64,000 nt of DNA from Escherichia coli (lineage in GTDB: Bacteria > Pseudomonadota > Gammaproteobacteria > Enterobacterales > Enterobacteriaceae), in assembly GCF_050920415.1 (NCBI RefSeq), contig NZ_CP169309.1; one strand, 5' to 3'. A program made the position numbers. Within the stretch, counting starts at the first letter, position 1; every line of letters starts with the position of its first letter. Positions 59,001 through 62,000 of this stretch are shown here, one piece after another.

Positions 59001-62000
59001 CGATAGGTCACAACAAAGAGGTTTTTATGAAAAAGCTTATCGTTTCAAGTGTATTGGCATTCATAACATTTTCTGCGCAGGCCGCAGCATTTCAGGTCAC
59101 TAGTAATGAAATAAAAACAGGAGAGCAACTTACAACGTCTCATGTATTTTCTGGATTTGGGTGTGAGGGGGGGTAATACATCGCCCTCATTAACCTGGTC
59201 TGGTGCTCCAGAAGGCACCAAAAGCTTTGCCGTAACTGTGTATGATCCAGATGCGCCTACAGGCAGTGGATGGTGGCACTGGACTGTTGCTAATATTCCA
59301 GCAACGGTAACATATTTGCCCGCTGATGCAGGAAGACGTGATGGTACAAAACTTCCGACTGGTGCTGTCCAGGGCCGAAATGATTTTGGCTATGCAGGAT
59401 TTGGTGGAGCATGTCCTCCCAAAGGAGATAAACCCCATCATTACCAGTTTAAAGTATGGGCTCTAAAAACTGATAAGATTCCTGTGGATTCTAATTCCAG
59501 CGGAGCGTTAGTTGGTTATATGCTTAATGCCAATAAAATTGCAACCGCTGAGATAACACCAGTTTATGAGGTAAAGTAGGGTAAGAGTATGCTGGCAAAA
59601 GATAGGACTAACCTAAAGATTGAAGAAATACGGATGCATAAACATCATGAGATTCACAGGGTTAAGCCTCTTATGCCAGCTTTATGTCGTATCCGTCAGG
59701 GAAAAAAAGTTATCAATTGGGAAACGCATAGTCTAACTGTTGATAATAATCAGATAATTTTATTTCCCTGTGGATATGAATTTTATATTGCGAATTACCC
59801 AGAAGCAGGTCTTTATCTTGCAGAAATGCTTTATTATCCCATTGATCTAATTGAAAAGTTCCAAAATCTTTATGCGATAACCGATCAAATTCGTAACACG
59901 ACAGGTTTCTGCTTACCTCAGAATCCCGAGTTAATATATTGTTGGGAGCAACTAAAAACATCTGTTTCCCGAGGCTTCTCAACGCAAATTCAGGAACACT
60001 TAGCAATGGGCGTTCTACTTTCATTAGGAGCACATCATGTTAATTGTTTACTTTTATCAGATAGTAAACAATCATTAATAAGTCGTTGTTATAACCTAAT
60101 GCTATCCGAACCTGGAACAAAATGGACAGCAAACAAGGTAGCGAGATATCTCTACATTTCTGTTTCCACATTGCATCGCCGTCTGGCAAGCGAGGGAGTA
60201 AGTTTTCAAAGTATATTGGACGACGTGAGGTTAAATAATGCGTTGTCTGCTATACAAACGACAGTAAAACCTATCAGCGAGATTGCCAGGGAAAATGGTT
60301 ACAAGTGTCCTTCTCGTTTTACTGAAAGGTTCCATAATCGTTTTAAGATAACACCAAGAGAGCTAAGAAAAGCGTCCAGAGAGTAAAAGTATTTTATGAA
60401 GGAGCAACAGCATCGATTTTTATTTTGGAAAATAAATACGGCATACTCAACCTATTGGAGCCTGAACAATCCGGTGACTTCTGCGCTAATCGGGGACGTT
60501 TATAAGCACATATAATTGATACTATCTTCCTCCATCACAATTTCAGAAATGCACGTGTGATTTTTTTGCATCCGGCGTTTGGACTATGTGGAGTTCAAGA
60601 GTGGGAAAGTTACAAGAGGTTGAGGGGATAATTAAAGGGATGCTTATGACATTAGATATCCGGATAGGTACGGTTATCGTTGTTATTAAATCTAGTTTAT
60701 ACGTTAAGATGCAGCTACAGCAGAAATTGCCACTGTTAATTTTTTCATCGTGAGCCCTTTTATTTGAACTATTATTTAAAAATGATGTCACTGCACTACA
60801 AATACTCATCTAATCAATGAGATTATTTCAAGATGTAAGTTTTAGTTTCTCATTTAAATTGTGAAGTAGATCCCTATTTTTATCTGAACTGTTTCTATTG
60901 CGCACAATGCATGACTATTTTGTGAACGAATATAAATTTGGTAGTCAAATTATATTAAAGGTTGTTATTTATGATTGACTCATAATTTATTTATTTAATT
61001 TAAATAGCCTAAAAATAACCATGGAGATTATTTGCATGATATTTGTTTAGATTTATTAATGTAATTGAGGTGATTTTATTTAATACGCAATATAGCGCCG
61101 CTTGATATTAGTTCTATTTTTTTTGCGTAAGATAGATGAGACAAACTGAGACGCATAATGGTTTGCAAGCAAGGCTCTAATACTTTGATGTTGAGGATGT
61201 GATGGGGCATGTACGGGGCATAGTACAATGATGTCCATGCAGGTGTAGATAATCTCCAGGCTTATCCAGTGCGCTGTAAAACCCCGTCCTTCAGGGTGGG
61301 GATATAAGGCTCGGTTTTTCACCTAACCAGGTGTTTGCTGTTGTTCAATGTATTGGCGGATGACGGATATTGGCGCACCTCCGCAGCTACTGGCAAAATA
61401 GCCGGGACTCCACAAAACGCCTTTGTAGTAATACCTGACTGCAATATCTGGTCGATCTAGTCGCAGTAATCTACTCGATACGCCTTTGAGGCTGTTTACC
61501 AGACTGGATATCGCCAGTTTGGGAGGATAGTTAATTAACAAATGGACGTGATCTGGTTCGCCATCCATTTCAACCAGTTCAGCTTCAAAATCAGCACATA
61601 CATTTGAAAAGTAAGTGCGTAGTTTTTCTGTCGCGTCATGGTCAAAAATCTGACGTCGGTATCTGGTGACAAAGACCCGGTGAACATGCATCAGAAAAAC
61701 ACAGTGCCTTCCACGCCGGATATCGGTTTCTTTTTTCACAGACCAAAGTATCATTTGGCCTGTGAAACGACTACAAGCATTTAAATTCCAGTTAAGACCA
61801 GGTGGTCAACAGGAGCGTGAAATGAGGCGCTTCGCAGGCGCATGTCGTTTCGTTTTCAATCGTGCTCTGGCGCTTCAGAATGAGAATCATGAGGCCGGTA
61901 ATAAATACATCCCTTACGGGAAAATGGCTTCCTGGTTGGTTGAGTGGAAAAACGCCACTGAAACGCAATGGCTTAAAGATTCGCCCTCACAGCCATTGCA

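What the first reader, a model, noticed from the sequence alone, without database searches (positions are those of the whole stretch)
60387..61270. ~900 bp AT-rich ORF-poor tract between ybcM and the IS200/IS605 element
This stretch has no ORF longer than 88 codons and is strikingly AT-rich with many short A/T runs. It could be the decayed remainder of a larger island, a curved/H-NS-bound silencing region, or could host non-coding RNA.
Basis: seen in the sequence. Interest (0 to 1): 0.25.

Follow-up and report, generated by a model that had tools for sequence, protein, structure and literature searches.

The report
Leftover debris of a deleted prophage porin
The AT-rich, gene-free stretch is wreckage from a small prophage-derived island in E. 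coli, mainly the orphaned control region of a phage porin gene lost to a 1.2-kb deletion, so it is ordinary genome decay and not a new element.

Summary
Window 60387-61270 has 33.7% GC against 48.1% for the whole window, which puts it in the lowest 0.3% of same-size windows. Its longest ORF is 88 codons, about what shuffled sequence of this composition gives.

The tract is a mosaic of relics from a DLP12-like lambdoid prophage island between fliE and yedK:
- the ybcM 3' flank;
- a dead ylcH (start codon ATG changed to ATA);
- the last ~33 codons of a QuuD-type Q antiterminator gene, with its stop codon lost;
- a deletion junction at 60707|60708;
- the first 41 nt of an Lc/NmpC-type porin gene on the minus strand;
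- 338 bp of that porin's upstream region at 25% GC, including the CAP site annotated in phage PA-2;
- 162 bp of unexplained island DNA, then 18 bp of yedK flank.

Strains with the intact island show that 1,222 bp were lost. That stretch held the porin body and its 3' UTR with the terminator, the region equivalent to ipeX.

About 1,030-1,080 of 5,426 complete E. coli genomes carry this allele. Roughly 1,100 more have a second, 673-bp deletion that removes the whole AT-rich core, so the core is dispensable. Rfam, Pfam and PHROGs gave nothing significant, and there is no unusual RNA fold.

H-NS binding is plausible but untested, and the ncRNA idea has no support. Interest is low.

The parts
59589..60386 (+). 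ybcM (AraC-type HTH regulator). This is the left flank of the tract and is given for context.
   Evidence: Annotated as ybcM in the 100%-identical record. It is part of an 88.6% nucleotide match to K-12 DLP12 that spans ybcM through ylcH (window 59589-60593).
60387..60501 (+). Homolog of the DLP12 ybcM-ylcH intergenic spacer. The K-12 hairpin CACCGGAG...CTCCGGTG is degraded here.
   Evidence: Aligns to K-12 L003 7253-7368 within a 79%-identity, 208-nt alignment.
60502..60593 (+). ylcH pseudogene remnant. The start codon ATG has become ATA, there is a 1-nt indel, and the 3' end is cut off.
   Evidence: Alignment to K-12 ylcH (L003 7369-7470). Homology stops at window 60593.
60603..60701 (+). 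3'-terminal fragment of a QuuD-type Q antiterminator gene. About 33 codons remain, the N-terminal ~97 codons are missing, and the stop codon TAA has become TTA at 60697-60699.
   Evidence: 81% nucleotide identity to K-12 quuD 3' end, L003 9242-9342. BLASTP gives 18/30 identities to the QuuD C-terminus, E=7e-10.
60677..60696 (.). 20-bp unit TCGTTGTTATTAAATCTAGT. There is one copy here and 2 or 3 tandem copies in other strains, so this is a slippage polymorphism.
   Evidence: Alignment of seven alleles: L010, L011 and L014 have 2 copies and L012 has 3.
60707..60708 (.). Deletion junction. Relative to strains with the intact island, 1,222 bp are missing: the porin from codon 14 onward, its stop codon, its whole 3' UTR with the intrinsic terminator (the ipeX-equivalent region), and the spacer up to 8 nt past the Q stop position.
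   Evidence: Window 59589-60707 matches L004 9660-10778 and window 60708-61266 matches L004 12001-12555. The 3' UTR alignment is. A junction-spanning 80-mer is found at >=80% coverage in 1,081 of 5,426 genomes.
60708..60748 (-). First 41 nt of an Lc/NmpC-type porin gene (ATG at 60748, encoding MKKLTVAISAVAAS). After the junction it reads directly into a stop codon.
   Evidence: 100% identical to K-12 nmpC, PA-2 lc and the intact island porin over these 41 nt. The intact island porin is 90% identical in protein sequence to PA-2 Lc.
60749..60900 (-). Promoter-proximal region and 5' UTR of the deleted porin. It is now orphaned.
   Evidence: 90.7% identity to K-12 DLP12 and 90.1% to PA-2 over 152 bp, and 99.3% to the intact island allele. 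Alignment.
60857..60877 (.). Homolog of the CAP/CRP-binding site annotated upstream of lc in phage PA-2. The window has AATTGTGAAGTAGATCCCTAT and PA-2 has ATTTGTGAAGTAGATCTCTAT.
   Evidence: misc_binding feature in J02580.1. The direct comparison is 19/21 identical.
60901..61086 (-). More distal porin upstream region. It is the most AT-rich part, and its homology to DLP12/PA-2/434-type phages fades here.
   Evidence: 70.8% identity to K-12 and to PA-2. BLAST homology to phages ends between query 686 and 700, i.e. window 61072-61086. The whole 338-bp upstream block 60749-61086 is 25.1% GC.
61087..61248 (.). Island-specific DNA of unknown origin (the wider segment 61087-61266 is 41.7% GC). It lies between the porin upstream region and the chromosomal backbone.
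   Evidence: Found only at this locus, in 1,554 of 5,426 E. coli genomes. No match in 50,697 phage records at E<=0.01. No homology to the K-12 fliE-yedK region.
61249..61266 (.). Chromosomal backbone: the 3' flank of yedK plus the first two bases (TC) of the complement of the yedK stop codon.
   Evidence: Homology between L004 and K-12 resumes at L004 12538, which corresponds to window 61249. The yedK stop lies at L004 12554-12556.
61267..61322 (.). End of the IS200/IS605 element on the tnpA side, with an imperfect subterminal hairpin (CCCCGTCC TTCA GGGTGGGG, 61282-61300). This is not part of the relic tract, although the finding's last 4 bases overlap it.
   Evidence: Comparison of the empty site (L004) with filled sites (window, L002) shows a clean insertion between TTATC and AAACAGG with no target duplication.

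Best explanation
The tract is not a functional unit. It is non-coding debris inside a ~2.9-kb prophage-derived island (window ~58330-61248) that lies between fliE and yedK. The island carries cargo genes of a DLP12-like lambdoid prophage: emrE, ybcL, ybcM and, originally, an Lc/NmpC-type porin.

Reading left to right, the tract contains:
- the ybcM 3' spacer;
- a dead ylcH;
- the last ~33 codons of a Q antiterminator gene;
- a deletion scar;
- on the minus strand, the first 41 nt of the porin gene followed by its upstream control region.

The strikingly AT-rich core (25% GC) is that porin control region: promoter, CRP site and 5' UTR. Such regions are typically AT-rich, and the only other spot this AT-rich in the 64-kb window is the upstream region of another porin gene.

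A single 1,222-bp deletion with no obvious microhomology removed the porin body and its 3' UTR with the terminator. That 3' UTR corresponds, from my own knowledge of Castillo-Keller et al. 2006, to the ipeX element that represses OmpC/OmpF.

Shown here: the homologies, the deletion endpoints, the population frequencies, and the absence of coding or RNA-family signal.

Inferred, not shown: the orphan promoter may still fire. If so, it would produce a short transcript that encodes at most a 14-residue peptide and runs antisense into the Q and ylcH remnants toward ybcM. The AT-rich core is probably coated by H-NS, as is usual for AT-rich acquired DNA. Neither effect needs to be adaptive.
For: - Origin of the window: 100% match to E. 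coli NZ_CP169399.1, where the tract is unannotated between ybcM and tnpA.
- Intact island: L004 has a 360-aa porin between ybcM and yedK. The window aligns to it on both sides of a clean 1,222-bp gap.
- Nature of the deleted gene: the porin is 90% identical to phage PA-2 Lc.
- Remaining porin fragment: the 41 nt are 100% identical to nmpC and lc. The next 152 bp upstream are ~90% identical and include the PA-2-annotated CAP site at 19/21.
- Left part of the tract: it matches the K-12 DLP12 ybcM-ylcH region and the quuD 3' end.
- Porin 3' UTR: its hairpins and terminator are present in K-12, PA-2 and L004 but absent from the window.
- Phage matches: 40 phage records match, and the best-covered place in every listed record is the porin-start/upstream segment, at ~82%.
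- Island status: the DNA is absent from the K-12 fliE-yedK locus.
- Tolerance to damage: a 20-bp VNTR and 4-bp indels vary among alleles. IS1 is inserted within the tract in at least four genomes. A 673-bp deletion between two copies of GCAGCTAC removes the whole AT-rich core in L005. From the evenly spaced listing, roughly 1,100 genomes match only the first 346 bp, as L005 does.
- No positive functional signal: no Rfam hit, no Pfam hit and only weak, non-significant PHROG hits, and a fold z-score of +0.54.
- Internal control: the other lowest-GC site in the window (about 36801-37130) is also the upstream region of a porin gene.
Against: - Frequency: the allele is common, in ~19-20% of complete genomes, and is 95-98% identical among them. 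However, its divergence is about the same as that of the neighbouring ybcM gene (97.5% against 98.0% versus L004), so this says nothing either way about selection.
- Retained signals: the orphan leader keeps its Shine-Dalgarno region, start codon and a site complementary to the RybB seed. Residual RNA-level activity is therefore not excluded.
- Unexplained DNA: 162 bp (61087-61248) have no identified origin.
- Missing data: no expression or H-NS binding data could be consulted.
Confidence: 0.88

Rival explanations
1. The orphaned porin leader is a working small RNA. The retained promoter would transcribe the 5' UTR, 41 nt of coding sequence and the antisense of the Q/ylcH remnants. This RNA would act as a decoy for porin-targeting sRNAs such as RybB, or as an antisense or convergent-transcription regulator of ybcM.
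For: - The promoter-proximal 152 bp and the CAP site are well conserved.
- The RybB 5' seed GCCACUG pairs with codons 5-7 of the retained fragment (window 60729-60735) at -13.9 kcal/mol, against -9.0 +/- 2.1 for shuffles; 2.3% of shuffles do as well.
- nmpC mRNA is reported as a RybB target in E. coli (PMC3333887).
Against: - The native terminator was deleted, and no minus-strand terminator-like site is found in the tract.
- There is no Rfam match.
- The predicted fold is no more stable than shuffles.
- The RybB site is simply inherited from the porin gene.
- A 20-bp VNTR varies within the would-be transcript.
- Roughly 1,100 genomes lost the entire promoter through a further deletion.
Confidence: 0.04
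2. The tract is maintained as an H-NS-bound, intrinsically curved silencer or insulator. It would keep the island genes or the adjacent IS200/IS605 element transcriptionally quiet.
For: The core is 25% GC over 338 bp and contains several A/T runs. From general knowledge, such acquired AT-rich DNA is the usual H-NS substrate.
Against: - No binding data were available.
- The H-NS high-affinity motif scan gave one 2-mismatch hit in the tract, and window-wide counts were no higher than shuffles.
- AT-richness is fully explained by descent from a porin regulatory region that has the same composition in phages.
- The core is deleted in a large fraction of genomes.
- H-NS binding would be a passive property, not a reason for the tract to exist.
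Confidence: 0.08
3. The tract encodes a conserved small protein. Candidates are the 39-aa ORF at 60396-60515, the 55-aa ORF at 60586-60753 and the 88-aa ORF at 60543-60809 (minus strand).
For: These ORFs exist. The 55-aa ORF has a weak, non-significant PHROG hit (E=0.008).
Against: - There are no Pfam hits.
- The 55-aa ORF is the Q C-terminal fragment read through a lost stop codon.
- The 20-bp VNTR, which is not a multiple of 3, lies inside both the 55-aa and the 88-aa ORFs and shifts their frames in other strains.
- In the K-12 homolog of the 39-aa ORF, the ATG is AAG and an in-frame TGA follows after 8 codons.
- PGAP annotates nothing here in any of the genomes listed.
Confidence: 0.02
4. 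The tract is ordinary chromosomal backbone intergenic DNA.
For: It sits between annotated genes and is found only on chromosomes, apart from 3 plasmid places.
Against: - K-12 lacks it at the fliE-yedK locus; backbone homology ends at window 58329 and resumes at ~61249.
- Its parts match prophage DLP12 and phages PA-2 and 434.
Confidence: 0.01

Closest known systems
Upstream regulatory region and 5' end of the lambdoid-phage porin genes lc (phage PA-2, GenBank J02580) and nmpC (cryptic prophage DLP12/qsr' of E. coli K-12)
   Same: - The first 41 nt of coding sequence are identical.
- The next 152 bp are ~90% identical, and a further 186 bp are ~71% identical.
- The PA-2-annotated CAP site is conserved at 19/21.
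- Orientation is the same relative to a Q gene fragment.
   Different: - The porin gene itself is gone beyond codon 14.
- The locus is a small island between fliE and yedK, not a prophage at the argU site.
- Upstream homology ends ~338 bp from the ATG, so the second PA-2 CAP site and the DLP12 plus-strand terminator before essD are not present.
ipeX, the OmpC/OmpF-repressing element in the 3' UTR of nmpC/lc (Castillo-Keller et al., J Bacteriol 2006; recalled from my own knowledge, the paper was not held)
   Same: The intact form of this island (L004) has a porin 3' UTR that aligns closely, hairpin for hairpin, with the K-12 and PA-2 3' UTRs, including the GGGGCG..CGCCCC terminator.
   Different: In the window the whole 3' UTR lies inside the 1,222-bp deletion, so no ipeX-like sequence remains.
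DLP12 ylcH and quuD (Q antiterminator) genes
   Same: Nucleotide homology is 79-81% in the same order and orientation downstream of ybcM. The Q C-terminus is recognisable at protein level.
   Different: - ylcH has lost its start codon.
- Only the last quarter of Q is left, and its stop codon is lost.
- The genes between them in DLP12 (ybcN, ninE, ybcO, rusA, ylcG and the 5' part of quuD) are absent.
AT-rich horizontally acquired DNA silenced by H-NS (xenogeneic silencing)
   Same: The base composition (25-34% GC in a ~50% GC genome) and the acquired origin both fit.
   Different: No binding evidence was available here, and the composition is inherited from a porin promoter region.

Membership tests
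lc/nmpC-type phage porin 5' regulatory region | Directly abuts the porin start codon and signal-peptide codons | tested here: met
   ATG at 60748 on the minus strand, encoding MKKLTVAISAVAAS. The 41 nt are 100% identical to K-12 nmpC, PA-2 lc and the intact island porin.
lc/nmpC-type phage porin 5' regulatory region | Nucleotide homology to the region upstream of lc/nmpC in phages and prophages | tested here: met
   ~82% identity over ~380 bp to PA-2, 434, DLP12 and about 40 phage records. The first 152 bp are 90% identical.
lc/nmpC-type phage porin 5' regulatory region | Proximal CAP/CRP site as annotated in J02580 | tested here: met
   Window 60857-60877 is 19/21 identical to the PA-2 site and the TGTGA half-site is intact. 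Actual CRP binding was not tested.
lc/nmpC-type phage porin 5' regulatory region | Drives an intact porin ORF | tested here: not met
   The ORF ends after 14 codons at the deletion junction 60707|60708.
ipeX-like porin 3' UTR element | Sequence between the porin stop codon and its intrinsic terminator is present | tested here: not met
   The entire 3' UTR (within the deleted L004 10779-12000) is absent from the window.
Q antiterminator gene (QuuD type) | Full-length ORF of about 127 aa | tested here: not met
   Only residues corresponding to QuuD 98-127 align (18/30 identities). The stop codon has changed to TTA.
ylcH small protein gene | Intact start codon and 33-codon frame | tested here: not met
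   ATG has become ATA at 60502-60504, there is a 1-nt indel, and homology ends at 60593.
Known non-coding RNA families (Rfam 15) | Covariance-model match | tested here: not met
   No hit in 60387-61270 at E<=1. All hits in 58000-64000 lie at 62453-62971.
H-NS-bound / curved silencing region | H-NS occupancy, or measured or modelled curvature | not testable with these tools
   Only composition (25% GC core) and an uninformative motif scan are available.
Prophage-derived genomic island remnant | Absent from the same locus in a reference genome and homologous to phage DNA | tested here: met
   Backbone homology to K-12 stops at 58329 and resumes at ~61249. The interior matches DLP12 at 81-92%.

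The most novel reading that the evidence does not exclude
The deletion accidentally created a new short transcript. The still-intact, CRP-responsive porin promoter would express the porin 5' UTR plus 14 codons, including the RybB pairing site, fused to the antisense of the Q and ylcH remnants. This RNA could act as a sponge for sigma-E-dependent porin-targeting sRNAs, or as a convergent antisense regulator of ybcM. That would make it an example of sRNA birth from pseudogene debris, shared by about a fifth of E. coli genomes.
Probability: 0.04. Interest if true: 0.4.

Novelty: already known. Interest (0 to 1): 0.08.

Why it matters
It matters little beyond correct annotation. The tract should be labelled as porin, Q and ylcH pseudogene remnants, not left blank or mistaken for a new regulatory element.

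There are two minor points of use:
- The fliE-yedK island exists in at least three nested decay states: intact porin in ~520 genomes, porin deleted in ~1,030-1,080, and porin plus promoter plus IS end deleted in ~1,100. These states could serve as a lineage marker.
- Strains with the intact form carry an extra Lc/NmpC-type porin with an ipeX-like 3' UTR. That could affect OmpC/OmpF levels and antibiotic permeability, whereas strains like this one have lost both.

Tried and rejected
- Rfam at a permissive threshold over 58000-64000 gave nothing in the tract.
- Pfam and PHROGs on the five ORFs of 39-88 aa gave no Pfam hits and only two non-significant PHROG hits.
- RNA folding of the putative orphan transcript gave z=+0.54, so it is not structured.
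- The sigma-70 promoter scan found 2 sites against 4.7 expected from shuffles. It therefore cannot locate the porin promoter, and no minus-strand terminator was found in the tract.
- The H-NS high-affinity motif TCGATAAATT with up to 2 mismatches gave 91 hits in the window against 76.5 +/- 9.8 expected, with one in the tract. This is uninformative.
- A search for the origin of 61087-61248 found only this locus in E. coli and nothing in phages, so that segment stays unexplained.
- I looked for a prophage late promoter and terminator (pR'/tR') in the tract. DLP12 has a plus-strand terminator upstream of essD (L006 3254-3275), but it lies beyond the point where homology with the window ends, so none is retained.
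- The ipeX paper and the E. coli B nmpC paper were not held. A literature search on nmpC, H-NS and DLP12 returned nothing bearing on this region.
- The junction-count search probably undercounts alleles with the second deletion. SNPs at 60674, 60694 and 60698 leave no 28-mer for megablast. I therefore took the estimate of ~1,100 from the evenly spaced listing, which makes it approximate.
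Full report
**Where the window comes from.** The 884-bp tract is 100% identical to E. 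coli strain MFDS1022581 (NZ_CP169399.1, 2046864-2047747). In that record it lies, unannotated, between ybcM and the tnpA gene of an IS200/IS605 element. The gene order is fliE, emrE, ybcL (frameshifted), ybcM, the tract, tnpA (minus strand), a 272-aa tnpB, a group II intron with ltrA, then yedK.

**Checking the observation.** The tract is 33.7% GC against 48.1% for the 64-kb window. Only 0.32% of same-size windows are as low. The low GC is concentrated in 60749-61086, which is 25.1% GC. The longest ORF is indeed 88 codons. However, shuffles of the tract give 68 +/- 15 codons, and 11% of them reach 88. The lack of ORFs is what this composition gives by chance and carries no extra information.

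**Evidence from strains with an intact island.** Similar sequence is present in 3,858 of 5,426 complete E. coli genomes, but in different forms. In strains such as Es_ST80_L1 (locus L004), a 360-aa porin gene lies on the minus strand between ybcM and yedK. PGAP calls it ompC.
- Window 59589-60707 aligns to L004 9660-10778, and window 60708-61266 aligns to L004 12001-12555, at 97.5-98% identity.
- The window therefore carries a clean 1,222-bp deletion.
- The deleted gene encodes a porin 90% identical to Lc of lambdoid phage PA-2, so it is an Lc/NmpC-type phage porin.

**What remains to the right of the scar.**
- *60708-60748, minus strand.* These are the first 41 nt of the porin gene (ATG at 60748, MKKLTVAISAVAAS). 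They are 100% identical to K-12 nmpC and PA-2 lc.
- *60749-61086.* This is the porin's upstream region. The first 152 bp are ~90% identical to DLP12 and PA-2, and the next 186 bp are ~71% identical.
- *CAP site.* The site annotated in the PA-2 record J02580 maps to window 60857-60877 and is 19/21 identical.
- *Phage matches.* Forty phage records match the tract. In every listed record the best-covered match is this porin-start and upstream segment, at ~82% identity.

**An internal control.** The only other equally AT-rich place in the window (about 36801-37130) is the upstream region of another porin gene, at window 35648-36841 on the minus strand.

**What remains to the left of the scar.**
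- *60387-60593.* This aligns at 79% to the K-12 DLP12 ybcM-ylcH spacer and ylcH. The ylcH start codon is now ATA and the frame is broken.
- *60603-60701.* This aligns at 81% to the last ~100 nt of quuD, the DLP12 Q antiterminator gene.
- *Protein-level check.* 18 of 30 residues match the QuuD C-terminus, E=7e-10.
- *Lost stop codon.* The Q stop codon has mutated to TTA, and that change creates the 55-aa ORF the scan lists.
- These Q and ylcH relics are also present in the intact-porin strains, so they predate the porin deletion.

**What the deletion removed.** Besides the porin body, it removed the whole porin 3' UTR. That UTR aligns closely among K-12, PA-2 and L004, and ends in a canonical terminator, GGGGCG(T/C)(T/C)TCAACGCCCC followed by a T run. 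From my own knowledge this 3' UTR is the ipeX element that lowers OmpC/OmpF expression (Castillo-Keller et al. 2006). I could not read that paper here. The one sRNA-like element known in this module is therefore absent from the window.

**The right end of the tract.**
- *61087-61248.* This segment is found only at this locus, in 1,554 genomes. It matches no phage record, and its origin is unexplained.
- *Backbone.* Homology to K-12 resumes at about 61249.
- *The IS element.* It starts at 61267. It is inserted cleanly, without target duplication, between the C and A of the complement of the yedK stop codon.
- *Island extent.* The island as a whole spans roughly 58330-61248. It is absent from K-12, which has yedL, yedN and intG at this position.
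- *Relation to DLP12.* The island lacks ybcK and the nin-region genes.

**Is anything functional left?**
- *Database searches.* Rfam gave no hit in the tract, even at E<=1. Pfam and PHROGs found nothing significant in the small ORFs.
- *RNA structure.* The hypothetical orphan transcript folds no better than shuffles (z=+0.54).
- *Variation among seven alleles.* They differ by a 20-bp VNTR (1 to 3 copies of the unit at 60677-60696) and by 4-bp indels. These break every candidate ORF.
- *IS1 insertions.* IS1 sits inside the tract in at least four genomes.
- *A natural knock-out.* Strain Ecol_542 (L005) keeps the first deletion junction but has a second, 673-bp deletion. It lies between two copies of GCAGCTAC (window 60711-60718 and 61384-61391) and removes the entire AT-rich core, the IS end and the 3' end of tnpA.
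- *Frequency of that knock-out.* Judged from the evenly spaced listing, roughly 1,100 genomes match only the first 346 bp, as L005 does. The core is therefore dispensable in nature.
- *Frequencies of the other forms.* About 1,030-1,080 genomes carry the window's form. About 520 keep the intact porin.

**Residual possibilities.** The orphan leader keeps its promoter-proximal sequence. It also keeps a 7-nt match to the RybB seed at porin codons 5-7, at -13.9 kcal/mol against -9.0 +/- 2.1 for shuffles. nmpC mRNA is a reported RybB target (PMC3333887). A short decoy or antisense RNA is therefore conceivable. Against this, the site is simply inherited from the porin gene, the native terminator is gone, and the promoter is lost in many lineages. 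I give this reading about 4%. H-NS binding to the 25% GC core is likely on general grounds but could not be tested, and the motif scan was uninformative.

**Verdict.** The tract is a patchwork of ylcH, Q and porin pseudogene fragments plus an orphaned, AT-rich porin promoter region. It was left by a 1,222-bp deletion in a DLP12-like island between fliE and yedK. It is ordinary genome decay built from known components, so interest is low.

Noticed in passing
window 35648-36841 (minus strand) and 36801-37130: A second porin gene, annotated ompC by PGAP, lies next to drpB, yedJ and dcm. I recall this as the position of yedS in K-12, but I did not check that. Its upstream region is the only other ~25% GC spot in the window, which mirrors the AT-rich porin upstream region in the finding.
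   Followed up: partly
window 59027-59579: ybcL is split into two overlapping ORFs (49 aa and 145 aa). RefSeq marks it as frameshifted in this strain, whereas it is intact in L002, L004 and other strains.
   Followed up: partly
window 61266|61267; other end seen in L002 ~8233: The IS200/IS605 element is inserted inside the yedK stop codon (TC|A on the plus strand) without target duplication. The IS end supplies a new stop one codon later, so yedK is annotated 3 nt longer (672 against 669 nt) in IS-bearing strains.
   Followed up: partly
window 61762-62580 and 62453-62971: tnpB here is 272 aa, against 402 aa in other strains (L011, L012, L014). A group II intron is inserted just beyond its end (Rfam D1-D4 hits at 62702-62971; ltrA follows). 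A sub-threshold RAGATH-18 hit (29.5 bits, E=0.017) lies at the tnpB 3' end, 62507-62550.
   Followed up: no
window 60677-60696: The 20-bp unit TCGTTGTTATTAAATCTAGT is present in 1, 2 or 3 tandem copies in different E. coli strains. It is a small VNTR inside the Q-gene remnant.
   Followed up: yes
L005 8315-8335 (window 60711-60718 and 61384-61391): A second, nested 673-bp deletion between two copies of GCAGCTAC fuses the porin fragment to the interior of tnpA. RefSeq then annotates an artificially extended 525-nt tnpA that runs into the ybcM flank. The allele appears to be very common, at roughly 1,100 genomes.
   Followed up: partly
window 61087-61248: This 162-bp stretch of island DNA has no detectable homolog outside this locus: nothing in phage records and nothing elsewhere in E. 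coli. The window allele has a private 4-bp insertion (GCAA) at 61165-61168.
   Followed up: partly
L006 3254-3275 (K-12 DLP12, between nmpC and essD): A strong plus-strand intrinsic terminator (AAACCCGCCGTCGAGCGGGTTT followed by a T run) lies ~125 nt upstream of the holin gene essD. It is possibly the prophage's tR'. It is conserved in PA-2 and 434 but is not retained in the window's island.
   Followed up: no
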